From NCBI GenBank assembly GCA_016464795.1, contig JAEKNN010000005.1, forward strand, positions 65,483 to 129,482: a stretch of DNA of 64,000 bases, read 5' to 3'. The notes under the pieces are model-generated. The model was not told the DNA's origin, did not search any database, and was given only the letters and a program-made list of their open reading frames with translations. Positions 29,602 through 43,271 of the stretch are shown piece after piece (the first letter of the stretch is position 1; each line of letters opens with the position of its first letter). Source of the stretch: Candidatus Amunia macphersoniae. GTDB lineage: Bacteria; Chloroflexota; Dormibacteria; Aeolococcales; Aeolococcaceae. The position numbers were made by a program, and so were the translations under genes.

Positions 29602-31323
29602 TCAGGTCCTCACGAGACGATCAGGTGAGGCGCCGCGACCACGGCGGCGATGGCGGATGACCACCGCGGCAGTCAACAGGCCGGCCACCGCAAGAGGCAG
29701 CAGCACCACCCGCGGCGCCTCAGGCAGAGCCGGGCCGATGGTGACCAGCCCACCGTTCGCGCACCAGCGGTTGTCAGGCACGCCGCTGCACGGGTTGGGC
29801 ATGGTGGTCTGGCTGGGAATTGGCAGAAGTAGAGCTACCTTCTCCTGCTTTGGGTACTCGGCTGCAGGTGTGGTCGGGCATGAAGTGACCACTCCCGAGG
29901 CGCAGGCCAGCTGCGCCGCCAGCACGGCGTCGGGGCTGCTGCCTGGCTGGCTGCTCGGGCACGGACCGCCGTCCAGGGTCTGGATCGCCGGCGGCTCCGA
30001 CGCGAGCCCGGCGGTGTCGGTGTTGCCGGCGAAGCAGTCCTTCGGGATGTCCTTCACGGAGACGAGGGCCAGATCGCCATTGGTCGGGTTCTTGAAGTAG
30101 CCGTTGTTGCTGAGGGTATTGTTGGTGATCACGTTCCCCTGAGCCGGGAAGAGGCACACGTACGTTGAGCCCGACCCGCTGCCGGTACCGCCCTGACAAT
30201 TCGAGAGGCCGCTCGCAGGGGGGGTCTCGGTGTCGGGAAAGTCATGCACCACGATGCCCCAGCTGCCCTGGTTGTAGACGGTGTTGCCATCGACGGTGTC
30301 AAAGGACGCACCGGCGAGCTCGATGCCAGAGCCGATGGGCGCGGCTCCGGCGATCCCGGAGCCGGGCACGTTGGGATTGTTGTTGTCGTGGACCTGGTTG
30401 CCGGTGATTCGTGTGCAGGACGCCGTCGTGGACCCTGGGCACAGCCCGTTCTGCGGGGGCGGGGCATCGTCGTTGTTCAACGAGTTGGGGACGATGCCGG
30501 CCTTGTTGTGATCCCACTCCGAGTTCTCGATGATCAGGTGACCGCCCGCGTTGGTGCCCGAGTACCCGAGCGCGCTGTTCTGCGCGTGCACGTGGTCGAG
30601 GGTGGCGTGGCAATCCGGGCAGGCGCCGACGTAGAACGCCGAGTCGCCCATGTTTGAGGCGTATGCATAGGAGATGGTTCCGGGACCGCTGGAATTGCTG
30701 ACAAAGATCCCGTACATGCCCATGTGGTCCGCGTTGTAGTACGTCGAGGTGCCGGTGATGTACGAGCCGTTGTACTTCCCGAGGCCGACCTTGCCGCTGC
30801 CGTCGCCCCCGTTCCACCAGATCTGGTTGCCCTGCGCGTCATGACCGTTGAGGAAGTTGCAGGCGGTGAGGTTCTCGATGGAGGTGCCGTCCACCTTCTT
30901 GACCACGATGCCGTTGCGCCCGCCGGTGTCCTGATCCCCAGGCTTGTCCGAACAGGGGCCGTTGGCGTTGGCGTTGGTGCCGTCGATGACGACCCCGTTG
31001 CGGTCCATGCCGCGCAGGTGGAGGCCGGGCGTGGTGATGGAAACGCCGACCCCGGTGCCACCACCCTTTTCGTGGTAGACGCCGGGTGCAACCAGCACCC
31101 AGTCACCGGGGCCGGCAGCGTCGACGGCGGCCTGGATCGACCTGTAGGGGCTGCCTGAGCAGTCGAGCTGGGGACCGGTGAGACCGGGTCCGTCATTTGG
31201 GCTCGACGGGCACACCAGCAGGACGTTCGGGCCGGTGGCGTGGGCGACAGGCGCGCCGCCGGCGACCCCGAACAGCAGGATCGCTCCGATCGCCGGGAGC
31301 ACAAGCCGACTGCGTCTGGACAT
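29602..31323 (-). CDS. Secreted right-handed parallel beta-helix (pectate-lyase/NosD-like) repeat protein with a C-terminal membrane anchor
   Basis: Signal peptide MSRRSRLVLPAIGAILLFGVAGGAPVAHA. PbH1-type repeats (ITGNQVHDNNN, VDGNTVYNQGSWGIVVHDF, IIENSEWDHNKAGIV). C-terminal LLPLAVAGLLTAAVVIRHRRRGRG anchor. Confidence 0.7.
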   Translation of the reverse strand: MSRRSRLVLPAIGAILLFGVAGGAPVAHATGPNVLLVCPSSPNDGPGLTGPQLDCSGSPYRSIQAAVDAAGPGDWVLVAPGVYHEKGGGTGVGVSITTPGLHLRGMDRNGVVIDGTNANANGPCSDKPGDQDTGGRNGIVVKKVDGTSIENLTACNFLNGHDAQGNQIWWNGGDGSGKVGLGKYNGSYITGTSTYYNADHMGMYGIFVSNSSGPGTISYAYASNMGDSAFYVGACPDCHATLDHVHAQNSALGYSGTNAGGHLIIENSEWDHNKAGIVPNSLNNDDAPPPQNGLCPGSTTASCTRITGNQVHDNNNPNVPGSGIAGAAPIGSGIELAGASFDTVDGNTVYNQGSWGIVVHDFPDTETPPASGLSNCQGGTGSGSGSTYVCLFPAQGNVITNNTLSNNGYFKNPTNGDLALVSVKDIPKDCFAGNTDTAGLASEPPAIQTLDGGPCPSSQPGSSPDAVLAAQLACASGVVTSCPTTPAAEYPKQEKVALLLPIPSQTTMPNPCSGVPDNRWCANGGLVTIGPALPEAPRVVLLPLAVAGLLTAAVVIRHRRRGRGASPDRLVRT

Positions 31324-31449
31324 CTCTTCCCTCCTCCCTCGCTTTCGCGTGAGGGTACAACCTCGCCCCCGCCGTCCACCAGGCACCCCGCCATCGGGTG
31401 ATTGTGGTGGCCGCCATGGCTCGGGTCCCCACGGCTCGGGCCGTCATCG

Positions 31450-32631
31450 TCAAGGCAAGCCGGCCGTACCGATCACCTCTGCGATGGTGCCCAGAGACTC
31501 GCGCCACACCTGGTCGTCGATGATCAGCGGGGGCAGCAGGCGGATCACCGTTCGTCCGCCCCGCAGCACCAGGATGCCCCGCCGCTGCAGCTCGGCGATC
31601 AGCGGTGTCGCGGGCACGCGAAGGTCGATGCCGATCATCAGGCCGCGACCTCGCACCTCGCGGACGAGCGGCGCGGGGAGCGCGCCCAGGCTGTTCACGG
31701 CTTCTGAGCCCAGCTCGGCCACCCGCCGATGCAGCAGCGGGTCGGCGAGGATCCGCAGCGTCACCGAGCCGGCGGCGCACACCAGCGGGCTGCCGGCGAA
31801 GGTGCTGCCGTGCCCGCCTGTGGGCATCCTCGCACCGACTGCTTCAGTGCACCCCGTCACCGCCATGGGAAGTCCGTTGGCGATGCCCTTGCCCAGGCAG
31901 ACGATGTCGGGGATGACCCCGTCGTGGCTGCATGCCAGGATGGCGCCGGTGCGCAGCCCGGTCTGCACCTCGTCGGCGACCAGCAGCGCGCCCGCGGCCG
32001 TGCACCGCTGCCGCAGCCCAGCCATGTACCCCGAGCTGGGCACGCGAACGCCCGCCTCTCCCTGCAGGGGTTCGACGACGACCGCCGCCACGCTCTCGTC
32101 GAGCACTCCGTCGAGGGCGTCGAGGTCGTCGTAGGCGACGTGGTTGACGCCCGGGAGCAGCGGGCCGAACGGGTCGCGGTAGGCCGCACTCGCCGTCAGG
32201 CTGAGTGCACCGAGAGTCCTGCCGTGGTAGCCGCGGTGCATGGCGACGATGCGCTCGCGGCCGGTGGCGACCCGGGCCAGCTTGATCGCCACCTCCAACG
32301 ACTCGCTGCCGGAGTTGAGGAAGCACACCTGGGTCAGCGCCGCCGGCAGCAGCGACCCGAGCGCCTCCAGAAACTCACCGCGCACCGGGCTGTCGAACGA
32401 CTGGTGCGCGTTGGTGAGGGTCGCCGCCTGGGCGGTGATCGCCGCCGTCACCGCCGGATGCGCGTGGCCCAGCACGTTGACCCCATAGTTGCTGACAAGG
32501 TCGACATATTCACGGCCATCCCTGTCGACCAGCGTGCAACCGTGACCGCTGACCAGGCTGATGCCGCGGCCGGTGAGCAGCGCCATGGCACGCAGCCGTG
32601 GTTCGGTCGCGGCCCCAGCGGTGGCCGTCAT
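31450..32631 (-). CDS. lysJ: Class-III aminotransferase, [LysW]-aminoadipate semialdehyde / acetylornithine aminotransferase
   Basis: PLP-fold motifs (LVADEVQTGLRTG, CLGKGIANGLP) and VNHVAYDDLDAL. Last gene of the lysW operon. The start overlaps the lysZ stop. Confidence 0.85.
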   Translation of the reverse strand: MTATAGAATEPRLRAMALLTGRGISLVSGHGCTLVDRDGREYVDLVSNYGVNVLGHAHPAVTAAITAQAATLTNAHQSFDSPVRGEFLEALGSLLPAALTQVCFLNSGSESLEVAIKLARVATGRERIVAMHRGYHGRTLGALSLTASAAYRDPFGPLLPGVNHVAYDDLDALDGVLDESVAAVVVEPLQGEAGVRVPSSGYMAGLRQRCTAAGALLVADEVQTGLRTGAILACSHDGVIPDIVCLGKGIANGLPMAVTGCTEAVGARMPTGGHGSTFAGSPLVCAAGSVTLRILADPLLHRRVAELGSEAVNSLGALPAPLVREVRGRGLMIGIDLRVPATPLIAELQRRGILVLRGGRTVIRLLPPLIIDDQVWRESLGTIAEVIGTAGLP

Positions 32632-33512
32632 CACACCGAGACCGCCGTCCCCGCGGCCGCCGCGGCCTGCGGCGCTGCGCCCGACGTCGCCTCCGCCTCC
32701 ATTGCCGGCGCGGTGAACCACGTGCCCTCGCCGTCCAGTGCGCGGCACAGCGGCCGAGCTCCGCGCCCGTCGCAGAGGGCTACCGCATCGATCCCCGCGC
32801 GCAGCGCGCGCTCGACCGCCGCCAGCTTGACCCGGACGCGGCCGCGCGCCGAGCCAGCCAACCCGCCGAGATCCTCAAGAGACGCGCGCGGCAGTGTGCT
32901 CCCGGCGTCGTCGGGGTCGGCGAGGAAACCGGCGGTGTCCGAGAAGATGATCAGCCGCTCTGCACCGATGGCGATCGCCAGCTCGGCGGCAAGCCGGTCG
33001 CCATCGACGTTGATCGGGCTGCCGTCGTCGCCGAGCGCCGGCGGGCACAGCACCGGGGTGTGGCCGGCCTCGAGCAGCGAGGTCAGCACGGTCGTGTCGA
33101 CGCTCTCGATGCTGCCGGCGTGGTCGCCGTGCAGCATCAGCGTGCGGCCGTCCTCGCGGATGCGCAGGTCCGTCCTGCGGCGACCGCGAACCATCCCCGC
33201 GTCCATGGCAGCGAGCCCGATCGCCCGCACGTCCCTGGCCAACAACTGCTGCACCAGGCGCTTGTTGACCAGCCCGCAGTACGCCATCAGGAAGTGGTCC
33301 ATCGCTGCCGCGTCCGTGTAGCGGCTGCTCTCTCCCCGCGCGGAGGTGACCAACCGTGGCGGGTGGCCGAGCCGCCGGGCGAGCTCATCGAGCACGCGGT
33401 GAGCCCCGTGGACGATGACCAGCGGCCCCTGGTGGGCGGCGATGTCATCGAGGAGGGTGGTGGGGTCCTCGAGGCTGCCGCCGATCTTGACCACCAAGGG
33501 AGGACCGCTCAT
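32631..33512 (-). CDS. lysZ: Amino-acid kinase family, [LysW]-aminoadipate kinase / acetylglutamate kinase-like
   Basis: LVVKIGGS nucleotide-binding N-terminus, VIVHGAH, a C-terminal domain typical of ArgB/LysZ. ATGA overlap with lysY. Confidence 0.8.
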   Translation of the reverse strand: MSGPPLVVKIGGSLEDPTTLLDDIAAHQGPLVIVHGAHRVLDELARRLGHPPRLVTSARGESSRYTDAAAMDHFLMAYCGLVNKRLVQQLLARDVRAIGLAAMDAGMVRGRRRTDLRIREDGRTLMLHGDHAGSIESVDTTVLTSLLEAGHTPVLCPPALGDDGSPINVDGDRLAAELAIAIGAERLIIFSDTAGFLADPDDAGSTLPRASLEDLGGLAGSARGRVRVKLAAVERALRAGIDAVALCDGRGARPLCRALDGEGTWFTAPAMEAEATSGAAPQAAAAAGTAVSV

Positions 33513-34543
33513 ATTGGGTAGAGCCCGGTGAAGTCGAGGCCACAGCACTCGTCGATGCCCGCGTGCACGTTGAGCGCGTGCACCGCCTGGCCGGCGCTGC
33601 CCTTGCCCAGGTTGTCGATGGCGGCAAGCACGACGGCGCGCGGCGCCCAGGGGTCGCGCTCGAAGCCCACGTCGCAGATGTTGGTGCCCGACAGCAGCTT
33701 CGGCTCCGGATGACGGTGGAGTCCCTGCGCCTCATGGACGACGCGGACGAAGGGCTCGGAGGCAAATGCCTCGCGGAGGAGGGCGCGCAGCCGGCGATCG
33801 TCGACTGCGTCGTCGGCCAGCGGCACGTGGGCGGTGACCAGCACGCCGCGGACAGCTTCGACAGCGGTCACCGACAGTGCCACGTTGTGCAGGCCCGTCT
33901 CCTGGACGATCTCGGCTGTGTGCCGGTGCCCGGTCGGTGCGAATGAGCGCATGGTCCCGCTGCGGTGGGGATGATGCGAGGACCCGCCCGGCTGTGCGCC
34001 GGCCGCCGACGATCCCACCTTGGCGTCGACGACCAACTGCTGGGTGGTGTCGACGACCCCAGCCCGCGCCAGGGGCAGGAGGGCCAGGATCGCCGCCGTG
34101 GCGACGCAACCGCCGGTGGCGAGGAGGCCGGCGCTGCGCACGCGATCGCGGTCGACCTCGGGCAGCGCGTACACCGCCTGAGCGAGCAGCTCCGGGCGCG
34201 AGTGCTTGCGGCCATACCAGCGCGGGTAGTCAGCGGGGTTGCGGAGCCGGAAGTCTGCGGAGAGGTCGATGACCAGCGGCGCGTGCTCCGCGAGCGAGTC
34301 GATGAACGCTTCGGATTCACCGTGGGGCAGGGCGCTGAAGAGCACGTCGCACTCCGGCAGGTCCGAGCGCTGGGTGAAACGAAGCGATGTCCGGCCACGG
34401 AGCACCGGATGGGTGTGGTGGACGAACCGTCCGGCCAGGCGCTCGCTGCTGGCGCCGACGACCTCGACGTGCGGGTGCTGGATGAGCAACCGCAACAGCT
34501 CGCCGCCGGTGTACCCGGCGGCGCCGGCCACGGCGACATTCAT
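33509..34543 (-). CDS. lysY: [LysW]-aminoadipyl-phosphate reductase / N-acetyl-gamma-glutamyl-phosphate reductase-like
   Basis: MNVAVAGAAGYTGGELLRLL Rossmann N-terminus. Catalytic Cys block LLATGGCVATAAILALLPL. C-terminal GKGSAGQAVHALN. Confidence 0.88.
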   Translation of the reverse strand: MNVAVAGAAGYTGGELLRLLIQHPHVEVVGASSERLAGRFVHHTHPVLRGRTSLRFTQRSDLPECDVLFSALPHGESEAFIDSLAEHAPLVIDLSADFRLRNPADYPRWYGRKHSRPELLAQAVYALPEVDRDRVRSAGLLATGGCVATAAILALLPLARAGVVDTTQQLVVDAKVGSSAAGAQPGGSSHHPHRSGTMRSFAPTGHRHTAEIVQETGLHNVALSVTAVEAVRGVLVTAHVPLADDAVDDRRLRALLREAFASEPFVRVVHEAQGLHRHPEPKLLSGTNICDVGFERDPWAPRAVVLAAIDNLGKGSAGQAVHALNVHAGIDECCGLDFTGLYPI

Positions 34544-34548
34544 CCTGC

Positions 34549-35661
34549 TCAACTGCCAGCTCCGCGCTGCGCTGGGGCACCGGGCCCGAACTCCCGGCTC
34601 GCCCCTGATGACAATGACCTCAGGGCCGTCTCGAGAACGTCGGCTCCGCGGCGCAGCTCGTCGATGTCGATGGACTCGTGCGGCGTGTGGTCGAGGCTGC
34701 AGTCGCCGGGGCCGTACACGGCCGCGTCACACCCCCACCGGGGGAGTACGACGTTGAGGTCCGAGGTCCCGGTCTTGCTGGTGTACCGCGGTCTTCCGCC
34801 GCTGGCGGCGACGCCTCTGGCCAGCGCACGCGCCACCGCGTTGCCGCGAGAGACGGCCACAGCGTCGCAGGCCGACTCGACCTGCACGCGCGCCTCCTTC
34901 ATCAGCGCCGCGACGCGCGCTGCGATGTCCTCGACGGCGACGCCCATGGGCATGCGCAGCTCGATCCCCGCCACCGCATGCTCGACGGTGCCGTTGTCGT
35001 TTGACCTCAGGGTGTTGACCCGAACCTGCACGCGGTCGACGGCGCGCTCGCCACCGGTCGGCAGCGAGCGCTGCAGCTCGGCAAGCCCCGCCACCAGACG
35101 GTCGGCGGCACCGGCGTGGGGCCCCGCGTGGTGCGCGGACTGGCGAGTGACAGTGGCCGTCAACCGCACGCAGCCGCGGTAGCCGGTGGTGACCGTGTCC
35201 CAGCCACTGGGCTCGAGGACGATGAGGTGTGACGGCGGCTTGCGGTCGCGCAGATACCGCGCGCCCAACGACGGACCCTCTTCGTCACAGGCGGCGATGA
35301 CTGTGATCCGCCGTCCGATGGGGCGTGGCAAGCGCGACACCGCCGCCAGAGCCGCTGCCAGCGGCCCCTTGGCGTCGACAGCCCCGCGTCCGTGCAGCCT
35401 GCCGTCCTGCTCGCGCACCTCGATGTGTCCGGGCACCGTGTCGAGGTGGCCGAGCAGCACGATCTCGTCCTCAATGGGCCCGTCGCCCCAGATCATCACC
35501 AGGTTGCCGGCCCCGTCGCGCTGCGCGTGATATCCGGCCTCCCGTGCACGGTGCAGCAACCGCGTCGCGGCCGCGTCCGTGTCTCCCGTCACCGAGGGGA
35601 TGCGCAGCAGCTCGTCGAGCAGGGTCAACGGGTCGAGCGCGAGGGTGACCGCCGCCGTCAT
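34549..35661 (-). CDS. lysK: M20-family metallohydrolase, [LysW]-lysine hydrolase (ArgE/LysK-like)
   Basis: LLGHLDTVP metal-binding His/Asp block, ACDEEG, and a dimerisation domain. The start, inferred at MTAAVTLALD, overlaps the lysX stop (ATGA). The longer tool ORF is an upstream extension that overlaps lysX. Confidence 0.78.
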   Translation of the reverse strand: MTAAVTLALDPLTLLDELLRIPSVTGDTDAAATRLLHRAREAGYHAQRDGAGNLVMIWGDGPIEDEIVLLGHLDTVPGHIEVREQDGRLHGRGAVDAKGPLAAALAAVSRLPRPIGRRITVIAACDEEGPSLGARYLRDRKPPSHLIVLEPSGWDTVTTGYRGCVRLTATVTRQSAHHAGPHAGAADRLVAGLAELQRSLPTGGERAVDRVQVRVNTLRSNDNGTVEHAVAGIELRMPMGVAVEDIAARVAALMKEARVQVESACDAVAVSRGNAVARALARGVAASGGRPRYTSKTGTSDLNVVLPRWGCDAAVYGPGDCSLDHTPHESIDIDELRRGADVLETALRSLSSGASREFGPGAPAQRGAGS

Positions 35662-36545
35662 CCGCTCAGCCCTGCGAGAACGCCGTCCGAAGCTGCCTGC
35701 CCAACCCTGCCTCCCACCTGGTCGCGAACGTGGGCGAGCGTGTACTCGACGATGCGCCCCGCGATGTCGACACCGGTCACCGCCTCGGAGTTGCGGAACT
35801 CCATGGAGTGGTTGACCTCGCTGACCAGCAGGCGCTTGCCATCCTCGAGCAGGTCGACGGCGAGCAGCCCTCCTCCCACCGCGCCGGCGGCGCGCAGTGC
35901 AACATCGGCGATAGCTGCGCTGACGGGGCGGTTGCGGGTGCTCGCGCCCCTGGCGGTGTTGGTGATCCAGTGCTCGGAGAGCCTGTCGACAGCGCAGATC
36001 ACCTCGCCGCCGGCAACGAACGCACGGATGTCGCGGCCCGGCTTGGCGACGTGTTCCTGCACGTAGTACACGTGATGTGCCGGCGAACCGAGGGTTGCCT
36101 TGTGGTCGAGCAGCGCCTCGGCGGCGTCGCGGTCGTTGACCCGCGCCAGGAGACGCCCCCACGACCCCACCGGTGGCTTGATTACCGCCGGATAGCCGAC
36201 GGTCTCGACGGCCTTCAGCCCACCCTCGACCGAGAAGGCCACCACTGTTCGCGGCACCGGAACCCCGGCGGCGGCGAGCAGCGCGGTGGTCACCACCTTG
36301 TCTGCACAGTTGGCGACCGCGCGGTGCTGGTTCACGGTGATGACGCCGCGACTCTCCAGCAGCTGGAGGACCGCCAGGGCATGGGACTGTTGCAGGCAAC
36401 GGTCCAGGACCACGTCCCATCGCGGCGTGTCCGCGTGCGTGTCCACCAGCAGATGGCGCACGTCGACCACCTCGACGGCCACCCCACGTGCCGAGAACGC
36501 CGCCAGGATCAGCTTCTCCTCGACACGCACGCGTGACACCAGCAT
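35658..36545 (-). CDS. lysX: RimK-type ATP-grasp ligase, alpha-aminoadipate--LysW ligase
   Basis: ATP-grasp blocks (GYPAVIKPPVGSWGRLLARV, LAVDLLEDGKRLLVSEVNHSMEF). ATG at 36545 (MLVSRVRVEEK). Located immediately downstream of lysW. Confidence 0.85.
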   Translation of the reverse strand: MLVSRVRVEEKLILAAFSARGVAVEVVDVRHLLVDTHADTPRWDVVLDRCLQQSHALAVLQLLESRGVITVNQHRAVANCADKVVTTALLAAAGVPVPRTVVAFSVEGGLKAVETVGYPAVIKPPVGSWGRLLARVNDRDAAEALLDHKATLGSPAHHVYYVQEHVAKPGRDIRAFVAGGEVICAVDRLSEHWITNTARGASTRNRPVSAAIADVALRAAGAVGGGLLAVDLLEDGKRLLVSEVNHSMEFRNSEAVTGVDIAGRIVEYTLAHVRDQVGGRVGQAASDGVLAGLSG

Positions 36546-36633
36546 GGCGACGCGCGGGTCACTCACCCCAGTCCTCCTCACGCACGCGTGACACCAGCAT
36601 GGCGACGCGCGGGTCACTCACCCCAGTCCTCCT
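36524..36633. repeat. Perfect 55-bp direct tandem duplication (2 copies) spanning the lysW 3' end / lysX 5' end junction
   Basis: The 55-nt unit CACGCACGCGTGACACCAGCATGGCGACGCGCGGGTCACTCACCCCAGTCCTCCT occupies 36524-36578 and repeats exactly at 36579-36633. Confidence 0.85.
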
Positions 36634-36781
36634 CCTCGGGCGGGGCGAGCACCAGCACCGGCGGTTGCAGAGCGGTCACCTCCAGGTCGGCTCCACAGTC
36701 GGGGCAGGGGACAACCTCACCCACCACCGTCCGCTCGTCGAGCGGAACGGCGGCGTCGCACTCCGGGCAGGGCATTGTCAT
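36614..36781 (-). CDS. lysW: LysW amino-group carrier protein (zinc-ribbon, C-terminal EDWGE tail)
   Basis: MTMPCPECDAAVPLDERTVVGEVVPCPDCGADLEVTALQPPVLVLAPPEEEDWGE. Features are the CxxC...CxxC ribbon and the hallmark C-terminal EDWGE. Confidence 0.9.
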   Translation of the reverse strand: MTMPCPECDAAVPLDERTVVGEVVPCPDCGADLEVTALQPPVLVLAPPEEEDWGE

Positions 36782-37278
36782 GCCCGGCTCTCCTCGAGGG
36801 CCGCCCACCCGGAGTCGTGAATCAGCTCGACCAGCCCGCCCGCGTCGGCGATACGCACCGCCAGCTGGGACGGGGCCTCGCCGTCGAAGCGGCGTCCGCC
36901 GCTGATCACAGTGCCGGTGCGAAGGTCGACCTCCACGCTGTCGCCATCGACGATGGCGGCCGCAGCTGCCGGGCAGCGAATCACCGGCAGGCCAATGTTG
37001 ACGGCGTTGCGCGCGAAGATGCGCGCGAAGCTGGCAGCAACCACTGCCACCACACCTGTCTCGCGGATCGACACCGGGGCGTGCTCACGCGAGGAGCCGC
37101 AACCGAAGTTGCGGCCCGCGATGATGACGTCGCCAGGTTGCACGCCGGCGGCGAAGTCCGGCCGCGCCTCGCAGAGGCAGGCGTGCGCCAGCGTCTTGGG
37201 GTCGGTGGTGAGGTTGAACCGGCCGGGCATGACCGCGTCGGTGGAGACGCCATCGCCAAGCACCCATGCACGTCCCAT
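36778..37278 (-). CDS. hacB: Homoaconitase / 3-isopropylmalate dehydratase small subunit (LeuD-like)
   Basis: MGRAWVLGDGVSTDAVMPGRF...IIAGRNFGCGSSREHAP is the LeuD fold signature. The true gene is about 166 aa, and the longer tool ORF is an upstream extension. It overlaps the lysW start. Confidence 0.85.
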   Translation of the reverse strand: MGRAWVLGDGVSTDAVMPGRFNLTTDPKTLAHACLCEARPDFAAGVQPGDVIIAGRNFGCGSSREHAPVSIRETGVVAVVAASFARIFARNAVNIGLPVIRCPAAAAAIVDGDSVEVDLRTGTVISGGRRFDGEAPSQLAVRIADAGGLVELIHDSGWAALEESRA

Positions 37279-38513
37279 CAGCGAGCACTCCGTGGATCGG
37301 TGATGCAGCCCGCGACAGCTGTGGCGGCCGCCACAGCGGGGCTGGTCAGGTAGATCTCCGCGTGTGGGCTGCCCATGCGCCCGGGGTAGTTGCGATTGCT
37401 GGTGGAGACGACACGTTCGCCGGCGGCGACCACGCCGTGTTGCCGGCCGAGACACGGTCCGCAGCCCGGATTCATCACCAGCGCACCCGCCTCGACGATG
37501 GTCTCGATCCAACCCCGGCGCAGTGCCTCTGTGTAGATGCGCCGCGACGCCGGCACCACCACCGTGCGGGTGTTCGGATGCACGGTGTGCCCCGACAGAT
37601 ACCGCGCGATCACCTCCATGTCCTCGAGACGGCCGTTGGTGCAGCTGCCGATGTAGACCTCGTCGATCGGTGTGCCCGCGACGTCGGCGATGTCGTGAAC
37701 GTTGTCGGCGGCCGGGGGCATGGCGATCTGCGGTTGCAGGTGAGTGACATCGACGTGCAGCGTGTCCGCGTAGCGCGGTGAGCGCGGCTGCGGGATGGGC
37801 ACGCCGTCGATCGGCGTGGTCCCCTCCAGGGTGGTCTCGTCGACCTCGCACAGCCCCGTCTTGCCGCCCATGTCTGCGGCCATGTTGGCGAGGGTGAGGC
37901 GCTGGTCGAGGGTCATCCGTGCCACGGTCTCGCCACCCCATTCGACGGCCATGTAGTCGGCACCGTCGCCGCCGATGCTCCCGAGCACGTGCAGGGCCAC
38001 GTCCTTGGCGGTCAGCGGCGCCCGCAGCTCTCCGGTGACCTCGACGCGCAGTGTCTGCGGAACCCTGAACCAGGTGCGCCCGGTGGCCAGGATCACCCCC
38101 ACGTCGGTGCTGCCCATGCCTGTCGAGAAGCAGCCCAGGCCGCCGTAGGTGGTGCTGTGCGAGTCGGCGCCGACGACGATCCCGCCCGGCCGTGCGTAGC
38201 CGCGCTCGACCATGATGATGTGGCAGATCCCCTCCGCGAAGAGGTTGCGGACCTGATGATCTGCGGCGAACCTGCGGATGCGCTGGTGCAGCTCGGCCGC
38301 GGCCACGGTTGCCGCCGGCATGACGTGGTCGAAGACCAGCACCACCCGCTGCGGGTCGTGCAGTGGCATCTCCATGCGTTCGAATGCCTCGATTGCCAGC
38401 GGGGCGGTGACGTCGTGGGCGAAGGCGCAATCGACAGGCGCGACCACTGTGTCGCCCGCGCTCACTGAACGCCCGAGCCGGTTGCCGATGATCTCCTCGA
38501 CGAGGGTTCCCAT
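37278..38513 (-). CDS. hacA: Homoaconitase / 3-isopropylmalate dehydratase large subunit (aconitase family, LeuC-like)
   Basis: Aconitase-family Cys ligands (GADSHSTTYGGLG, IGSCTNGRLED, NPGCGPCLG). The start is inferred at MGTLVEEIIG. Confidence 0.85.
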   Translation of the reverse strand: MGTLVEEIIGNRLGRSVSAGDTVVAPVDCAFAHDVTAPLAIEAFERMEMPLHDPQRVVLVFDHVMPAATVAAAELHQRIRRFAADHQVRNLFAEGICHIIMVERGYARPGGIVVGADSHSTTYGGLGCFSTGMGSTDVGVILATGRTWFRVPQTLRVEVTGELRAPLTAKDVALHVLGSIGGDGADYMAVEWGGETVARMTLDQRLTLANMAADMGGKTGLCEVDETTLEGTTPIDGVPIPQPRSPRYADTLHVDVTHLQPQIAMPPAADNVHDIADVAGTPIDEVYIGSCTNGRLEDMEVIARYLSGHTVHPNTRTVVVPASRRIYTEALRRGWIETIVEAGALVMNPGCGPCLGRQHGVVAAGERVVSTSNRNYPGRMGSPHAEIYLTSPAVAAATAVAGCITDPRSAR

Positions 38514-38517
38514 CTCC

Positions 38518-39645
38518 TCAGGCCCCCGCCGACGCGCGCAGCAGCGCGTCGACCTCGTCGTCGCGCAGGAGCCGTTCGCCCGCATGGCGCTTGACCTCGG
38601 CGGTGACGCGGCGCAGCCAGGTGTCGTCACCGGCAATTCCCAGCGCGGCCGCCCGCTGGCGCACCGCGTGGCGCCCCACCAGTTGATGGTTGACGAGCAG
38701 GCGGCGCTCGATGCCGAAGCGCTCTGGGGCAAAGGGCTCGTAGCTGCGCGGGTCTCCGAGCACCGCCTTGGTGTGCATCCCGGCCTTGTGGTGGAACGCG
38801 TAGGGGGAGGTGATCGGAGCGGTGAGCGGGATGTCGACGTCGAGGATCCCCGCGACCATGGCATCGAGCGCAGCCAGCCGTTCCAGTGCGTAGTGGTCAA
38901 CCAGCTCGGGCTGCACGGTGTGCAGCCGGGCGATCAACCCGGAGAGCGGGACGATGCCATTGCGCTCACCGATGCCCAGGACCGTGGTGTCGATGTGCGT
39001 GGCACCCGCCTGCAGCGCGGCCAGCGCGTTGGCCACCGCACAGCCGTTGTCGTTGTGGGCATGGAACTCGATGTCGCAGTCGACAGCATCGCGGAGCTGG
39101 GTGATCAGGGCGGTGACCTGCGCGGGTGTGGCGATGCCGACAGTGTCGGCGAGGCCGACGCGATCGACCCCGAGCGCGGCAACGGCGGCGAGGATGCGGA
39201 GCAGGTCGGCCGGCTCGGTGCGGAAGGAGTCCTCGCAGCTGAAACGCACCTCGAGCCCGGCGGCGCGGACCAAGGCGATGCAGTCGGCCGCAGCCACCAC
39301 GATGTCGTCGAGCTCCAACCCGTGGGAGTTAGACCGCAACCAGGACGAGGTGCCGAAGAGCAGGTCGACACCGCCCACACCGCAGTCGATGGCGAGGAGC
39401 ACGTCGTCGACAACGCAGCGTGTGTGCGTGAGCACTATGGCGCGCAGCGGCAGGGCTGCGATCTCGCGGCAGGACCTTTGCGCGGTGGGTGACGCCACCG
39501 GCGTGGTCAGCTCGATGTGCTCGACCCCGAAGTCGTCGACCGCGTGGGCGATCTGCCGGCGTTGGGCGAGGGTGAAGTGGGCGCCGGCGAACTGTTCACC
39601 CTCACGGAGGGTGGACTCGATGATGGAGAGGCGGCGGATTGGCAT
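38518..39645 (-). CDS. hcs: Homocitrate synthase (short LeuA/NifV-family enzyme without the LeuA regulatory domain)
   Basis: IIESTLREGEQ N-terminal motif of the DRE-TIM metallolyase family, plus HAHNDNG and ERNGI motifs. It is 375 aa and heads the lysW operon. Confidence 0.8.
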   Translation of the reverse strand: MPIRRLSIIESTLREGEQFAGAHFTLAQRRQIAHAVDDFGVEHIELTTPVASPTAQRSCREIAALPLRAIVLTHTRCVVDDVLLAIDCGVGGVDLLFGTSSWLRSNSHGLELDDIVVAAADCIALVRAAGLEVRFSCEDSFRTEPADLLRILAAVAALGVDRVGLADTVGIATPAQVTALITQLRDAVDCDIEFHAHNDNGCAVANALAALQAGATHIDTTVLGIGERNGIVPLSGLIARLHTVQPELVDHYALERLAALDAMVAGILDVDIPLTAPITSPYAFHHKAGMHTKAVLGDPRSYEPFAPERFGIERRLLVNHQLVGRHAVRQRAAALGIAGDDTWLRRVTAEVKRHAGERLLRDDEVDALLRASAGA

Positions 39646-39686
39646 GTGGATGAGTCCGATCTGTGGTGATGACGATGCAGTGGGAG

Positions 39687-39714
39687 AAACAAAAAAGAAC
39701 CCCCGCGGGGGTTC
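39687..39714 (-). terminator. Rho-independent terminator-like hairpin (GAACCCCCG-CGGGGGTTC followed by a U-tract on the minus strand)
   Basis: Perfect 9-bp GC-rich inverted repeat at 39697-39714 with an A6 run at 39691-39696 on the plus strand (U6 on the minus strand). It lies about 150 nt downstream of the cupredoxin-like gene and about 45 nt upstream of the hcs start. Confidence 0.6.
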
Positions 39715-39874
39715 TCTTCAGTGCTTTGGTCGCTTGCTGAGCTGTCGGTCAGCGTGCGGAGTCGCAGGGCACGTCAGGTTTCCCGGCGGGGAACGACGGT
39801 GCCATCGATTTGCGAATCAGGTGCGACATCTGCATGACGATGGCGCCAAGGGTACGGGACGATGGCGCTCTTCG

Positions 39875-40666
39875 TCAAACCACTGGCGGTCGCGATCTCA
39901 GCTGGCGGTATGCCAGAGCGCCAACCCCACTCAGTGCCATGAGCACCAGCGCGATCACCAGCAGCGATGACGCGCCGCCACCCTTGTCGATGGCGCCGAC
40001 GACTCCAGAGGGGGAGGGGGAGGAGGACGCCAGGGAGCTCGGGGTGACCAGGGCGACCGGCCCGGTGTCCGAGGGGGAGGGCGTGTCGCTGGGCGTGGGG
40101 GCCGGCGTCGGCGTGGGCGACGGTGGCGCGGTCGGCGGCGGCCCATTGCCTGGTGGGAGGGAGAACACCAAGGGAGTGGATGCTGGCGACGGTGTGGCCG
40201 CCGTGACGGAGACGTCTCCATGCAGGGCGGCGTAGCCGTCAGGGACCGAGTAGTAGACGTACGTGCCGGGGCTTGTGAAGGTGAAGGTGTATGACCGGCT
40301 CGGCGGGATGTCGGCCGTCGAACCGAAGCCGGTGTCGCCGCCTGTTCCACCGTCCTGCCCGGCGCATGGTTGGGGCGTGGGTTTGGCCTGCGCCTTGGTG
40401 GGGCATCGCGTGACCGTGTGCACCGCTCCCGTGTCGTTGGTCCAGGTCACGGTCGTCCCTGACGCGACCGTCAGTGAAGGCGGCTGGTAGCAATAGCTGC
40501 CCAGCGATTTGACGTCACCGGCGCAGGTCGTGCTGGGCCCGGCGACGGCGATCTTCACGCTCGCCGATTCGGCGGCCAGCGACGAACGCGGGCTCAGCAG
40601 CACGGCAGCGGCGACGATCAGCGAAGCCAGAGCCGCAAGCCCTGCCGCTCGGCGACGATGCGTCAT
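39875..40666 (-). CDS. Secreted cupredoxin-like domain protein with a Pro/Ser/Thr-rich linker and a C-terminal membrane anchor
   Basis: Signal peptide. GTTVTWTNDTGAVHTVT beta-sandwich motif, but no evident Cys/His/Met copper ligand set. PTPAPTPSDTPSPS linker. C-terminal GGGASSLLVIALVLMALSGVGALAYRQLRSR. Confidence 0.5.
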   Translation of the reverse strand: MTHRRRAAGLAALASLIVAAAVLLSPRSSLAAESASVKIAVAGPSTTCAGDVKSLGSYCYQPPSLTVASGTTVTWTNDTGAVHTVTRCPTKAQAKPTPQPCAGQDGGTGGDTGFGSTADIPPSRSYTFTFTSPGTYVYYSVPDGYAALHGDVSVTAATPSPASTPLVFSLPPGNGPPPTAPPSPTPTPAPTPSDTPSPSDTGPVALVTPSSLASSSPSPSGVVGAIDKGGGASSLLVIALVLMALSGVGALAYRQLRSRPPVV

Positions 40667-40675
40667 CAGCCGCCT

Positions 40676-40963
40676 TCAGGCCGCCTCGACCGTGACGCCC
40701 TTCCAGAAGGCGACGTGGTCGGCGATCTCCTTGGCTGCGTCCTTCGGTTCTGGGTAATACCAGGCCGCGTCGGTGTTGACGTCGTCACCGATCACGATGT
40801 CGTAATAGCTGGCCTCGCCCTTCCATGGGCAGGTGCTGTGCGTGGAGCTGGGCAGCAGCAGCTCGGTCTTCACCGCTGCCGGCGGAAAATAGTGGTTGCC
40901 TTCGACGACGACTGTGTCGTCGCCCTCGGCGATGACCGTGCCGTTCCATGTTGCGCGTGGCAT
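40676..40963 (-). CDS. DUF427 domain protein
   Basis: VVVEGNHYFPP and AWYYPEPK motifs are characteristic of DUF427. 95 aa. Confidence 0.7.
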   Translation of the reverse strand: MPRATWNGTVIAEGDDTVVVEGNHYFPPAAVKTELLLPSSTHSTCPWKGEASYYDIVIGDDVNTDAAWYYPEPKDAAKEIADHVAFWKGVTVEAA

Positions 40964-41132
40964 TGAGCGTCTCCTGTCGCGTGACGGGCTGGTTCCGTTG
41001 TCGGTTGTTGCCCGGCGGCCTGGCCGGTGGCCTGGTGGTCTCGCGGCTCGGTTGACGTCCCGGCCGAGGGGTCATCTTGCACTGCAGGCCATCAGGACGG
41101 CAGGGCCGCCTCACCGCGCTGGCCAACCCGGC

Positions 41133-41861
41133 TCACGACGGCAGCGCCGCCATCACCGCGCTGGTCACCGCGTTGGTCCCGGCAGTCCCGCCGAGGTCGG
41201 GCGTCAACACGCCCGCGGCGATCACCGAGTCGACAGCGGCCCGAACCTCGGCTGCCGCCCGTGGCTGGTCGAGCGAGTGCTCCAGCAAAAGACCTGCGCT
41301 GAGAATCGCGCCGATTGGATTGGCGATGCCACGGCCGGCAATGTCCGGGGCGCTTCCGTGAACCGGCTCGTACAGGGCTGGTCGCGAAGCGCCACCCCCT
41401 GCGTCGGCGGGCAGGCTCGCCGACGGGAGCAGACCGATGGAGCCGGACAGGGCGGCGGCCTCGTCGCTGAGGATGTCGCCGAACAGGTTCGCGGCGAGCA
41501 CGACGTCGAGTTCGAGCGGTCGTTGCACCAGGCGCAGGGCGAAGCTGTCCACGAGGGCGTGCTCGAGGGCCACCTTCGGATGATGGTCTGCGACCTCGGT
41601 GACCACCTCTCGCCAGAAGCGACTGCTGGTGGCGCCGAAGAGGATGGCGCGCGCCTGCTTGCACGAGGCGACGGTCTGCTCGGAGATCGGTGCGCCCTCT
41701 GCCCGGATGGCCGCGCCACCGATGTGGCGGTGCTCGACGCGCAGCGGGATGTCGCGCGCTGCGCAGACGGCCAGCAACACCCGTTCGGCGGCATCGACGA
41801 CCTCGGGGCCGACACCGTCGCCGGGCAGGATCACGATGGCGGCGGGCGGCGCGGCGGTCAT
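41133..41861 (-). pseudogene. Isocitrate/isopropylmalate/homoisocitrate dehydrogenase-family gene with a large in-frame internal deletion (probably inactive)
   Basis: N-terminal [13 protein letters not shown] and ILFGA blocks, and C-terminal [26 protein letters not shown] and [20 protein letters not shown] blocks, are intact. Aligned to E. coli LeuB, about 120-150 central residues are absent. Those residues include the substrate-binding Arg residues, the catalytic Lys/Tyr and the first metal Asp. The ORF is 242 aa versus a typical ~340-360. Confidence 0.6.
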
Positions 41862-42029
41862 TGGCGTGGCCAGTGTCGCGGGTGCGAGGCGCTCCGCGGA
41901 GCCGGGCGCGGCGGTTGATCGGGTGGCGGCGAGGCAGTTCGGCTCAGTCCGGGAACGAGACAGTTCAAGGCGGCCGGCGACGAGACAGTCGGCCCGGGCA
42001 GCGGGTCCCGCAATTCAGCCCAGGCGGGC

Positions 42030-43271
42030 TCAGGATCCTTCTGGGTGCGGCTCCGTGATCCTGGCGACGAACAGTGGCACCCCTGTGGCCGTGTCCTCGA
42101 CGACGAACAGGAACGGCCTGTCCACTGTCATACGGATGGGCTGCCGGATCAGCGCGGCGCCGGTTTCCACAGAGATGCCGGTGGCCGCGGACGCCTTGGT
42201 ACCGGCTTCGTCCACAGACATCCACGCCTTGTGCACTGCCCAGGCCACGCGCAGGTCGCCCGGTGCTCCAGCGATGCCGGAGAGGTCGGGGAACCGAAAG
42301 AGATCAGCGAGGCCAAGAGCGCCCAGCGATGACCTGAGGTCCGTTGACGTCTCGGCGGCGAACCGCGGCATGGCCAGCTGAACGGCGTGAGATGACAGCT
42401 GCGAGGTGATCCCCGGCAACCTGCCCAGAAGAGTCAGCGGGTCGGCGGCGGTGTCGGCGGACAGAACCACGAGGGCATCGAGACCGCCGGTCGCGTAGGG
42501 GAGGCGCACCGCCTGCGCATCGGCGGTCTGAACGTACTCCATGCTCGTGACAAGGTTCATGGTGGGCACTGACCGAGGCCCAGCCGGCGTGGTGAATGGC
42601 GCGTCCTGGGTGTCTCGCTGCGGGAACGGGGTCACCCACTGCGCGGTGAGCGCGACAGCGTTGGCGAGCACCAGGCGTGTGGTGTCGCTGATCGTTCCAG
42701 GTGCGAAGAGGTTGTCGATGCGGTTGCCGGTGTGGCCCAACACCCACTGGTTGATGGTCTGGCGTGCGCCGTCAGGGTCAGATATGAAGTCGAGCGCTTG
42801 CGGTGCCGCGCCGGCATCGGTCAGCAACTGGCGATAGCCGCTGACGATCTGATAACTCTGCTGCAGCCATGCTGCCGAGGCCATCGCCACGGTGCCGTCA
42901 GCGGTGCCGAGATGCTGTTCGAGGCCGACCAGGTCGGCGATGAGCTGACGTGATGAGCCGGCGGCGTGGAGCGCTCGGGTGAGCTGCGCGGAGGTCTGTC
43001 CCCGCGCGCCCGGCGCGAGGAGGCTGAGGGCGTCGAAGATGCTGGCAGGGGAGACGACCAGGTTGCCGCTGTGTTCTGCTGCGAGCGCTGCGACCAGGTC
43101 CTGTGCGAAGGCTCGCTCGCTGGCGGCGGCGGCCTCGGTGTGCGAGAGCGCGAGGAGCTGCGCAGTGGGCGCGGGCCGTCCGCTACCGAGGACTGTGGTG
43201 GCGGCACTGCCGCTGAGCGCGACCGACAGTGCGGCCGCCAGCCCGGCGGCGACGAGCGGCAGCCTCTTCAT
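42030..43271 (-). CDS. Serpin (serine/cysteine protease inhibitor) with a signal peptide
   Basis: Serpin signature blocks NAVALTAQWVTPF and MTVDRPFLFVVED. Hinge region DEAGTKASAATG. Signal peptide MKRLPLVAAGLAAALSVALSGSAA. Confidence 0.85.
   Translation of the reverse strand: MKRLPLVAAGLAAALSVALSGSAATTVLGSGRPAPTAQLLALSHTEAAAASERAFAQDLVAALAAEHSGNLVVSPASIFDALSLLAPGARGQTSAQLTRALHAAGSSRQLIADLVGLEQHLGTADGTVAMASAAWLQQSYQIVSGYRQLLTDAGAAPQALDFISDPDGARQTINQWVLGHTGNRIDNLFAPGTISDTTRLVLANAVALTAQWVTPFPQRDTQDAPFTTPAGPRSVPTMNLVTSMEYVQTADAQAVRLPYATGGLDALVVLSADTAADPLTLLGRLPGITSQLSSHAVQLAMPRFAAETSTDLRSSLGALGLADLFRFPDLSGIAGAPGDLRVAWAVHKAWMSVDEAGTKASAATGISVETGAALIRQPIRMTVDRPFLFVVEDTATGVPLFVARITEPHPEGS

What the first reader, a model, noticed from the sequence alone, without database searches (positions are those of the whole stretch)
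31450..39645. Nine-gene LysW-carrier alpha-aminoadipate lysine biosynthesis operon with near-continuous start/stop overlaps
The operon is hcs, hacA, hacB, lysW, lysX, lysK, lysY, lysZ and lysJ, all on the minus strand, and the junctions ATGA/TGATG at 37278, 36778-81, 35658-61, 33509-12 and 32631 indicate translational coupling. This pathway is characteristic of Thermus/Deinococcus, Chloroflexi and archaea rather than most high-GC Gram-positive bacteria, so it is informative about lineage and metabolism. The gene order (lysK between lysX and lysY) differs from the Thermus order I recall.
Basis: partly seen in the sequence, partly recalled or inferred. Interest (0 to 1): 0.55.

Follow-up and report, generated by a model that had tools for sequence, protein, structure and literature searches.

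The report
LysW-type lysine synthesis operon, Dormibacteria
This is a real but ordinary nine-gene operon that makes lysine by the "Thermus-type" aminoadipate route using a small carrier protein, in an uncultured soil bacterium (Dormibacteria, not an actinobacterium) that appears to have no other way of making lysine.

Summary
Observation confirmed. Nine co-directional minus-strand genes (hcs, hacA, hacB, lysW, lysX, lysK, lysY, lysZ, lysJ; 31450-39645) match the expected families, and all five listed start/stop overlaps are present.

Interpretation supported, with one correction: the genome is a Candidatus Dormibacteria MAG (Chloroflexota-related), not a high-GC Gram-positive.

The refutation test fails.
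- dapA, dapB, dapF and lysA were not found in the 91%-complete genome.
- Separate argC-J-B-D and leuA-CD-B sets exist.
- The single LysX carries the aminoadipate-type specificity motif (F-V-T-NS), not the ArgX motif.

The lysX-lysK-lysY order holds in two Dormibacteria families but not a third, and differs from the W-X-Y-Z-J-K order of the other phyla sampled.

New context:
- hcs is preceded by a conserved promoter, a 28-codon leader ORF with two rare AAA lysine codons and a terminator. This is a probable lysine attenuator.
- A sister family has a lysine (AAA) T-box at the same place.
- Among 81 Dormibacteria genomes, LysX (34) and LysA (36) never co-occur.

Caveats: the tenth ancestral gene (homoisocitrate dehydrogenase, 41133-41861) is internally deleted, and a 55-bp duplication splits lysW from lysX.

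Earlier scan notes had already flagged the duplication, the deletion and the hairpin. Verdict: new member of a known kind.

The parts
39849..39878 (-). Promoter-like element: -35 TTGACG (39878-39873, overlapping the stop codon of the upstream cupredoxin-like gene), 18-nt spacer, -10 TACCCT (39854-39849)
   Evidence: The sequence is. The TTGAC and TAnnCT blocks are conserved at the same spacing in five related Dormibacteria loci and in the tandem-Lys leader clade. The function is inferred.
39749..39835 (-). Leader ORF of 28 codons (MQMSHLIRKSMAPSFPAGKPDVPCDSAR*) with AAA lysine codons at 39811-39809 (K9) and 39781-39779 (K19), starting about 13 nt after the -10 box (near-leaderless)
   Evidence: The ORF is kept in frame in the window, L001, L002, L004 and L005 at 28-30 codons, and both AAA codons are invariant. 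AAA is 5.6% of Lys codons and 0.09% of all codons in this genome. The N-terminus (MQMS...K) is shared with the tandem AAA-AAA leaders of related genera.
39683..39719 (-). Intrinsic terminator (12-bp G+C-rich stem, U-tract) 47 nt upstream of the hcs start; proposed attenuator terminator
   Evidence: It is the only terminator-like site in 31000-42100. The stem is conserved with compensatory changes in five relatives. With a ribosome masked at K9, the consensus fold pairs the 3' half of the upstream hairpin with the terminator's 5' arm.
38518..39645 (-). hcs, homocitrate synthase
   Evidence: TIGR02146 2e-123, 411.9 bits against a cut-off of 413.6; Pfam HMGL-like plus HCS_D2. It is distinct from the genome's true leuA (C7, 679 bits on TIGR00973; the window gene scores only 187).
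37278..38513 (-). hacA, homoaconitase large subunit
   Evidence: TIGR01343 hacA_fam 519 bits, above the cut-off. A separate leuC lies on contig C7.
36778..37278 (-). hacB, homoaconitase small subunit
   Evidence: TIGR02087 177 bits, above the cut-off. There is a 1-nt TGATG overlap with hacA.
36614..36781 (-). lysW, amino-group carrier protein (55 aa; CPEC...CPDC zinc ribbon; C-terminal EEDWGE)
   Evidence: TIGR01206 54.4 bits against 53.2; Pfam PF21344 1e-14. It is the only copy in the genome. 997 homologues were found, many of them named LysW by their sources.
36525..36634 (-). Perfect 55-bp tandem duplication (copies 36634-36580 and 36579-36525) spanning the lysW stop and the lysX start; it creates the mini-ORF 36600-36559 (MLVSRVREEDWGE*)
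   Evidence: Sequence; TRF period 55, score 222. It is absent from five related loci, which have a single copy with a 13-nt spacer. Both flanking genes stay intact.
35658..36545 (-). lysX, LysW:alpha-aminoadipate ligase (ATP-grasp)
   Evidence: TIGR02144 306 bits against 276. The best solved relative is T. thermophilus LysX 3VPD at 251 bits; Sulfurisphaera ArgX 3VPB scores 156 bits. The specificity motif is F-V-T-NS.
34549..35661 (-). lysK, [LysW]-lysine hydrolase (M20 family), unusually placed between lysX and lysY
   Evidence: NF003367 319.5 bits, below its cut-off of 363; TIGR01902 246 bits against 163. The position is conserved in Dormibacteria families f1 and f2.
33509..34543 (-). lysY, [LysW]-aminoadipyl-phosphate reductase (ArgC family)
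   Evidence: TIGR01850 344 bits. It is 37% identical to the genome's separate argC on C61.
32631..33512 (-). lysZ, [LysW]-aminoadipate kinase
   Evidence: NF010659 268 bits against 223. There is an ATGA overlap with lysY.
31450..32631 (-). lysJ, [LysW]-aminoadipate semialdehyde aminotransferase (class III)
   Evidence: Pfam Aminotran_3 8e-101. NF042418 LysJ 355 bits is below its equivalog cut-off, so the assignment rests on family plus operon position.
41133..41861 (-). Remnant of the tenth pathway gene, homoisocitrate dehydrogenase (LeuB-like), with an in-frame internal deletion of about 120 residues (junction near 41631)
   Evidence: Pfam Iso_dh matches in two stretches that skip roughly model positions 75-192. 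Full-length orthologues sit at the same place in L001, L002 and L005.

Best explanation
The cluster is a lysine-specific, LysW (amino-group carrier protein)-mediated alpha-aminoadipate (AAA) pathway operon of the Thermus type, and probably the only lysine route of this Dormibacteria genome. HCS condenses acetyl-CoA with 2-oxoglutarate, and HacAB isomerises homocitrate. After oxidative decarboxylation and transamination by enzymes encoded elsewhere, AAA is ligated by LysX to the C-terminal glutamate of LysW. The bound AAA is then phosphorylated (LysZ), reduced (LysY), transaminated (LysJ) and released as lysine (LysK). The genes form one transcription unit with mostly overlapping or abutting reading frames. 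Transcription most likely starts at a conserved promoter about 200 nt upstream of hcs and is gated by a leader-peptide attenuator: a ribosome stalling at a rare AAA lysine codon prevents formation of the terminator just before hcs. Gene identities, operon layout, the LysX motif and the absence or presence of the other pathways are shown. The enzymology is taken from the characterised T. thermophilus system. The attenuation mechanism is inferred.
For: - Family assignments hold for all nine proteins.
- LysW has the zinc ribbon and the EDWGE tail.
- Aligned to T. thermophilus LysX, the LysX signature residues are F-V-T-NS. The published types are LysX F-I-T-NS, ArgX I-Y-V-GF and bifunctional Y-I-T-NA (PMC12998189). 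81 orthologues in related loci are F-I-T-NS, whereas the second LysX paralogue of a sister family is I/L-I-T-GF.
- dapA, dapB, dapF and lysA were not found in the genome, which is 91.4% complete with 0.18% contamination.
- Separate sets exist for arginine and leucine: argC-argJ-argB-argD on C61 and leuA-leuC-leuD-leuB on C7.
- In 81 Dormibacteria genomes, LysX above cut-off (34) and LysA above cut-off (36) never co-occur.
- The leader ORF with invariant AAA codons plus a terminator is conserved, and AAA is rare in this genome.
- Related genera carry a tandem AAA-AAA leader with a clear antiterminator when the ribosome is placed on the Lys codons.
- A sister family has a T-box with specifier AAA at the same position (RF00230, 92.7 bits, E 4e-21; AAA in 18 of 19 leaders).
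Against: - The adjacent homoisocitrate dehydrogenase gene has lost about 120 central residues, so that step must be covered by another enzyme. The candidate is LeuB on C7, 58-60% identical to intact orthologues. Otherwise the pathway is incomplete.
- No LysN (AAA aminotransferase) was identified specifically; there are only nine generic class I/II aminotransferase hits.
- HCS, LysK and LysJ score below their equivalog cut-offs.
- The genome is a 72-contig draft, so absence of the DAP genes is not proven.
- In the window's own leader there is a single sensing codon upstream of the hairpin, the predicted antiterminator is weak and imperfect, and the terminator could simply belong to the upstream gene.
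- There are no expression or biochemical data.
Confidence: 0.88

Rival explanations
1. The LysW module works for arginine/ornithine, or for both lysine and arginine, as in Sulfolobus or Thermococcus, rather than for lysine alone.
For: LysZ, LysY, LysJ and LysK of T. thermophilus are promiscuous towards the glutamate-derived intermediates (PMC12998189). Position 192 of the LysX motif is V rather than I. A sister Dormibacteria family does seem to run a dual system: it has a second, ArgX-like LysX paralogue and no ArgJ.
Against: This genome has one LysX, with the F-V-T-NS motif. It also has a complete separate argC-argJ-argB-argD cluster. The operon includes hcs and hacAB. The leader carries Lys codons, and the relatives' T-box has an AAA specifier.
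Confidence: 0.05
2. The operon is a decaying or non-functional remnant. With homoisocitrate dehydrogenase deleted, the organism is a lysine auxotroph that scavenges lysine.
For: The HICDH orthologue is internally deleted. A 55-bp duplication sits inside the operon. Three small genomes of the same family have neither LysX nor LysA.
Against: All nine genes are intact, with no frameshifts or stops, and are 70-90% identical to their orthologues. The duplication spares both neighbouring genes. A close LeuB paralogue is available. The leader is conserved. Both lesions could also be recent variants or assembly artefacts of a MAG.
Confidence: 0.06
3. It is an amino-group-carrier-protein cluster for a secondary metabolite, that is, a non-proteinogenic amino acid building block as in some Streptomyces clusters (recalled from memory).
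For: LysW/LysX/LysZ/LysY/LysJ/LysK homologues are reused in such clusters, and the gene order here is atypical.
Against: No tailoring, NRPS/PKS or transketolase-type genes are adjacent; the neighbours are a beta-helix protein, an ECF sigma fusion, a cupredoxin-like protein, DUF427 and a serpin. The cluster is conserved across two Dormibacteria families in genomes lacking LysA. It is preceded by Lys-sensing leaders.
Confidence: 0.01

Closest known systems
Thermus thermophilus LysW-mediated AAA lysine pathway (hcs, lysT/U, lysW, lysX, lysY, lysZ, with lysJ and lysK)
   Same: It has the same enzyme set and the same carrier with the EDWGE tail. The LysX-type specificity motif is shared, and the closest solved LysX is the Thermus enzyme (251 bits). 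It coexists with a separate acetyl-type arginine pathway (PMC12998189). Expression is likewise proposed to be controlled by a lysine leader peptide; the Thermus case is recalled from Tsubouchi et al. 2005, J Biol Chem, and was not checked here.
   Different: All nine genes lie in one operon, with lysK between lysX and lysY and lysJ last. In Thermus, from memory, lysJ and lysK lie outside the main cluster. The host is a mesophilic soil Dormibacteria lineage. HICDH is adjacent but broken. Motif position 192 is V.
Chloroflexota, Acidobacteriota, Planctomycetota and Actinomycetota lysW clusters (loci L008-L080)
   Same: The LysX orthologues are 50-59% identical with the same F-I-T-NS motif, and hcs-hacAB-(hicdh) is often linked.
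   Different: Their order is lysW-X-Y-Z-J-K, or X-Y-Z-K. The X-K-Y order is seen only in Dormibacteria loci of families f1 and f2. One Dormibacteria family (locus L128) keeps X-Y-Z-K.
Sulfolobus/Sulfurisphaera LysW system with LysX plus ArgX (lysine and arginine on one carrier)
   Same: It uses the same carrier chemistry. The sister Dormibacteria family f2 resembles it: two LysX paralogues, one of them ArgX-like, and no ArgJ.
   Different: The window's genome has a single LysX-type ligase and its own argCJBD, so it does not fit this type.
Leader-peptide transcription attenuators (trp, his, leu and thr operons; Thermus lys cluster)
   Same: It has a short ORF with codons for the end-product amino acid, followed by a terminator directly before the first biosynthetic gene. 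Alternative 1:2, 2:3 and 3:4 pairings are predicted, clearly so in the tandem-Lys relatives.
   Different: In the window only one Lys codon lies upstream of the pause hairpin and the second lies inside it. The mRNA is apparently near-leaderless, and the antiterminator is weak. Untested.
T-box riboswitch (Rfam RF00230)
   Same: In family f2 the orthologous operon is preceded by a full-length T-box with specifier AAA, so it responds to the same signal, tRNA-Lys charging.
   Different: There is no T-box in the window. The score in relatives is 92.7 bits, 0.3 below Rfam's gathering score.

Membership tests
LysW/AmCP-mediated alpha-aminoadipate lysine pathway | Carrier protein LysW: about 54 aa, zinc ribbon (two CxxC), acidic C-terminal EDWGE ending in Glu | tested here: met
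   55 aa with CPEC, CPDC and the ending ...EEEDWGE. TIGR01206 is above its cut-off and PF21344 scores 1e-14.
LysW/AmCP-mediated alpha-aminoadipate lysine pathway | LysX ATP-grasp ligase with the AAA-type specificity signature (TtLysX F182, I192, T203, N258, S259) | tested here: met
   F-V-T-NS from the alignment to 3VPD/1UC8. The motif definition comes from PMC12998189. Four of five residues are identical and one is conservative (I to V). The ArgX-type and bifunctional residues are absent.
LysW/AmCP-mediated alpha-aminoadipate lysine pathway | Co-encoded LysZ kinase, LysY reductase, LysJ aminotransferase and LysK hydrolase | tested here: met
   NF010659, TIGR01850 and TIGR01902 are above their cut-offs. 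LysJ is assigned by family plus position.
LysW/AmCP-mediated alpha-aminoadipate lysine pathway | AAA supply: homocitrate synthase, homoaconitase, homoisocitrate dehydrogenase and AAA aminotransferase | tested here: inconclusive
   HCS (1.6 bits below the equivalog cut-off) and HacAB are present. The cluster-linked HICDH is internally deleted, and a LeuB paralogue 58-60% identical to intact orthologues exists. LysN was not specifically identified.
LysW/AmCP-mediated alpha-aminoadipate lysine pathway | Lysine, not arginine, is the product: an independent arginine route is present and the DAP route is absent | tested here: met
   argC, argJ, argB and argD lie on C61. No dapA, dapB, dapF or lysA was found. 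The caveat is genome completeness of 91.4%.
LysW/AmCP-mediated alpha-aminoadipate lysine pathway | Demonstrated covalent LysW-AAA intermediates and lysine output | not testable with these tools
   This needs biochemistry or genetics.
ArgX/LysW-glutamate (arginine/ornithine) system | Ligase with the ArgX signature I-Y-V-GF (or bifunctional Y-I-T-NA), and absence of acetyl-cycle arg genes | tested here: not met
   The motif is F-V-T-NS and ArgJ is present at 436 bits.
Leader-peptide transcription attenuator | Short translated ORF enriched in the regulatory codon, directly upstream of an intrinsic terminator, conserved in relatives | tested here: met
   The ORF is kept in frame in five loci, the two AAA codons are invariant, and the terminator shows compensatory changes. 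AAA makes up 0.09% of codons genome-wide.
Leader-peptide transcription attenuator | Mutually exclusive antiterminator that forms when the ribosome stalls at the regulatory codon | tested here: inconclusive
   It is clear in the tandem-Lys clade. In the window clade the consensus fold gives only an imperfect helix between the hairpin's 3' half and the terminator's 5' arm.
T-box leader (RF00230) / lysine riboswitch (RF00168) | Match to the covariance model upstream of hcs in the window | tested here: not met
   The only Rfam hit in the whole window is a tRNA. The T-box is found only in family f2 relatives.

The most novel reading that the evidence does not exclude
Within one bacterial class the same lysine operon is governed by interchangeable sensors of tRNA-Lys charging. 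Some genera have a near-leaderless leader peptide with tandem AAA codons. The window's genus has a diverged single/dual-AAA version with a conserved hairpin. A sister family has a Lys-specifier T-box. The class as a whole is partitioned, without overlap, into DAP users, Thermus-like LysW (lysine only) users and Sulfolobus-like LysW users (a LysX-type ligase plus an ArgX-like paralogue, and no ArgJ in the four family-f2 genomes tested). The window's leader would then be a new lysine attenuator type and a natural case of turnover between a T-box and a leader peptide.
Probability: 0.5. Interest if true: 0.55.

Novelty: new member of a known kind. Interest (0 to 1): 0.38.

Why it matters
It settles lysine metabolism for an uncultured, globally common soil lineage. 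This Dormibacteria genome makes lysine by the carrier-protein aminoadipate route and evidently lacks diaminopimelate. That also predicts a peptidoglycan without meso-DAP (lysine or ornithine type), as in Thermus, Deinococcus and Chloroflexota, and is useful for designing cultivation media.

The comparative context is the more interesting part. Sampled genomes of one class show a clean either/or split between the DAP and AAA routes. The same operon also carries Lys-sensing leaders of different kinds. Together these offer a compact system for studying pathway replacement and regulatory turnover. The operon itself is a routine annotation that public pipelines already name correctly.

Tried and rejected
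- **Rfam on the window:** at gathering thresholds there is no lysine riboswitch, T-box or other known leader upstream of hcs.
- **BLAST of the leader DNA across 201 genomes of the GTDB phylum:** only the same genus was found, so leaders had to be collected through hcs and LysX loci instead.
- **Metagenome pattern scan for the conserved hairpin:** one new leader (L119), one duplicate of L002 (L123) and three chance matches.
- **Full-length thermodynamic folding with ribosome masks:** the terminator is kept in every condition, so this was uninformative. Only folds truncated before the 3' arm discriminate.
- **Literature:** nothing on Dormibacteria lysine biosynthesis is in the held library. The Thermus leader-peptide paper and Miyazaki 2001 are not held, so the Thermus gene order and attenuator are cited from memory.
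- **Considered and rejected:** hcs-hacAB as leucine or citramalate genes, because true leuA, leuCD and leuB lie elsewhere; and a secondary-metabolite AmCP cluster, because of the neighbours.
- **Not attempted:** a LysX/LysW phylogeny with experimentally characterised references, because no reference sequences could be brought in by id; the signature-motif test was used instead. No structure or complex prediction was run, since these are textbook families.


Full report
**1. The observation**

The window is uniformly G+C-rich (65-72%). Between 31450 and 39645 the minus strand carries nine consecutive open frames. Choosing starts by position and by family alignment gives:
- hcs 38518-39645
- hacA 37278-38513
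- hacB 36778-37278
- lysW 36614-36781
- lysX 35658-36545
- lysK 34549-35661
- lysY 33509-34543
- lysZ 32631-33512
- lysJ 31450-32631

Most proteins score above the curated cut-offs. HCS misses its equivalog cut-off by 1.6 bits, and LysK and LysJ reach only subfamily or family level.

The remaining junctions are a 4-nt gap (hcs/hacA), a 5-nt gap (lysK/lysY) and a 68-nt gap (lysW/lysX). Such overlaps suggest translational coupling but are commonplace in high-GC operons.

**2. Whose genome it is**

The window lies on contig C70 of a 2.92-Mb, 72-contig assembly that is 91.4% complete with 0.18% contamination. The closest LysX loci in the species-level genome collection are all Candidatus Dormibacter / Dormibacteria / Dormiibacterota MAGs, at 70-81% identity. 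The next tier, at 50-59%, comprises further Dormibacteria MAGs (57-59%) together with Chloroflexota, Acidobacteriota, Planctomycetota and some Actinomycetota.

The lineage is the Chloroflexota-related AD3 group, one of the groups where this pathway is expected. An earlier scan note names the species Candidatus Amunia macphersoniae. The name exists in NCBI taxonomy under Dormibacteria, but I did not verify the species assignment.

**3. Is it lysine, and is it the only route?**

Four DAP-specific families (lysA, dapA, dapB, dapF) find nothing in the genome, while each rings in most control genomes. The genome has:
- only one lysW, one lysX and one lysK;
- a separate argC-argJ-argB-argD cluster on C61;
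- a separate leuA-leuC-leuD-leuB cluster on C7.

The cluster is therefore not needed for arginine or leucine.

A published five-residue signature separates the ligase types: AAA-specific LysX (F-I-T-NS), glutamate-specific ArgX (I-Y-V-GF) and bifunctional enzymes (Y-I-T-NA) (PMC12998189). The residue-by-residue alignment to T. thermophilus LysX (3VPD, 251 bits) gives F-V-T-NS for the window protein. The Thermococcus bifunctional enzyme aligns with Y-I-T-NA as published, and the ArgX structure is a much weaker match at 156 bits.

Across the loci fetched, 81 orthologues are F-I-T-NS and the window is the one I-to-V variant.

**4. Comparative layout**

In all eight Dormibacteria loci from the public collection the order is hcs-hacA-hacB-lysW-lysX-lysK-lysY-lysZ, with lysJ last where the locus reaches that far. 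The same holds for regions fetched from families f1 and f2 of the class.

In L002, L005, L129 and L130 a LeuB-like dehydrogenase gene lies directly upstream of hcs; in L001 a cupredoxin-like gene separates them, as in the window. In several Chloroflexota/Actinomycetota loci it sits between hacB and lysW. This is the homoisocitrate dehydrogenase, the tenth gene of the ancestral unit.

In the window it lies at 41133-41861, separated from hcs by a cupredoxin-like gene and a DUF427 gene. It has lost about 120 central residues in frame, including the substrate-binding and catalytic stretch. The intact orthologues are 58-60% identical to this genome's LeuB, which is the obvious stand-in. Whether it serves as one is untested.

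**5. Class-wide distribution**

In the same sample of 81 Dormibacteria genomes, LysX above cut-off occurs in 34 and LysA above cut-off in 36, with no genome having both. An hcs orthologue also occurs in 34 genomes, none of which has LysA.
- Families f3 and f4 have LysA and neither LysX nor hcs (DAP-type).
- Family f2 is almost wholly AAA.
- The window's family f1 is mixed.

These tallies include three or four genomes flagged as unpublished (G164, G220, G258, G239). Removing them does not change the pattern. Kin are not independent, so this is a description and not a test.

**6. Regulation**

The only terminator-like hairpin in 31000-42100 lies 47 nt before hcs. Alignment of the region upstream of hcs in the window and four related loci shows three conserved elements:
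- a TTGACG / 18 nt / TACCCT promoter-like pair;
- a short ORF starting about 13 nt after it;
- the terminator.

The ORF is preserved in frame at 28-30 codons, and its few differences in the conserved core are mostly synonymous (TTC/TTT, CCT/CCG, CCC/CCG). Both lysine codons are AAA in every sequence. In this genome AAA is 5.6% of lysine codons and 0.09% of all codons.

The consensus fold has a strongly conserved hairpin inside the ORF, a small hairpin over the stop codon, and the terminator. Eight pairs show compensatory changes. With the ribosome placed on K9 and the transcript cut before the terminator's 3' arm, the freed 3' half of the hairpin pairs, imperfectly, with the terminator's 5' arm and its conserved GCAC flank.

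Other genera of the family have a homologous leader (it starts (V/M)QMS...) with tandem AAA-AAA codons. There the antiterminator is textbook-clear.

In family f2 the same position holds a full-length T-box (RF00230, 92.7 bits against a gathering score of 93, E 4e-21). The specifier-loop sequence GAA-AAA-G occurs in 18 of 19 leaders.

Three different devices that read tRNA-Lys status in front of orthologous operons are independent support for a lysine function. For the window itself I rate 'lysine attenuator' at about 0.6. The alternative is that the hairpin merely terminates the inserted upstream gene, but the element is equally conserved where the upstream gene is different (L002, L005).

**7. 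Lesions inside the unit**

A perfect 55-bp tandem duplication (36634-36580 and 36579-36525) is absent from five relatives. It repeats the last lysW codons, the 13-nt spacer and the first seven lysX codons. This yields a 13-codon mini-ORF ending in the LysW tail EEDWGE. Both genes and the lysX start context are intact, so the effect is probably neutral, a relay of termination and reinitiation. It may also be a population variant or an assembly artefact.

**8. Verdict**

The finding is real and correctly interpreted, but ordinary. It is a new member of the well-characterised LysW/AAA pathway in a lineage whose public MAG annotations already carry the LysW name. The added value lies in four results:
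- the corrected host;
- the evidence that this is the sole lysine route and is Lys-specific;
- the lineage-specific gene order;
- the comparative picture of leaders and of pathway partition within Dormibacteria.

Earlier notes of this scan had already flagged the duplication, the HICDH deletion and the hairpin. I re-derived each of them independently before reading those notes.

Noticed in passing
window 36525-36634: A perfect 55-bp tandem duplication at the lysW/lysX junction makes a 13-codon mini-ORF (36600-36559) that fuses the LysX N-terminus to the LysW EEDWGE tail. It is absent from five relatives.
   Followed up: yes
window 41133-41861: The LeuB-like homoisocitrate dehydrogenase gene upstream of the operon has an in-frame deletion of about 120 residues. 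Intact orthologues lie at this position in L001, L002 and L005.
   Followed up: yes
window 39875-40963: A cupredoxin-like gene (39875-40666) and a DUF427 gene (40676-40963) are inserted between the dehydrogenase remnant and the lys leader. L002 and L005 lack them. The leader's -35 box overlaps the cupredoxin gene's stop codon.
   Followed up: partly
L091-L103, L106, L108-L112, L114 (about 330 nt upstream of hcs): Family f2 Dormibacteria have a full-length T-box with specifier AAA (Lys) in front of the orthologous operon. One genome (L109) has CAA at the specifier position.
   Followed up: partly
L124:3-752, L126:3-659, L127:34-711: Family f2 carries a second LysX paralogue just upstream of the T-box, with an ArgX-like signature (I/L-I-T-GF). 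Four of four f2 genomes tested lack ArgJ. This suggests a Sulfolobus-like LysW route to both lysine and arginine in bacteria.
   Followed up: partly
class-level genome sample: LysX (34 genomes) and LysA (36 genomes) are mutually exclusive among 81 Dormibacteria genomes. Eleven genomes, several of them small (1.5-2.0 Mb), show neither.
   Followed up: partly
L038, L048, L049, L059: Thermomicrobiales/Chloroflexia loci carry three LysX paralogues with divergent signatures (FSTGL, YSAGL, LERSF) around a lysK. This may indicate several carrier-protein pathways.
   Followed up: no
L128 (G254:C48:49000-60500): One Dormibacteria family keeps the order lysX-lysY-lysZ-lysK-hicdh, so the X-K-Y rearrangement is not universal in the class.
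   Followed up: no
window 56114-56185: A single tRNA gene is the only Rfam match in the window.
   Followed up: no
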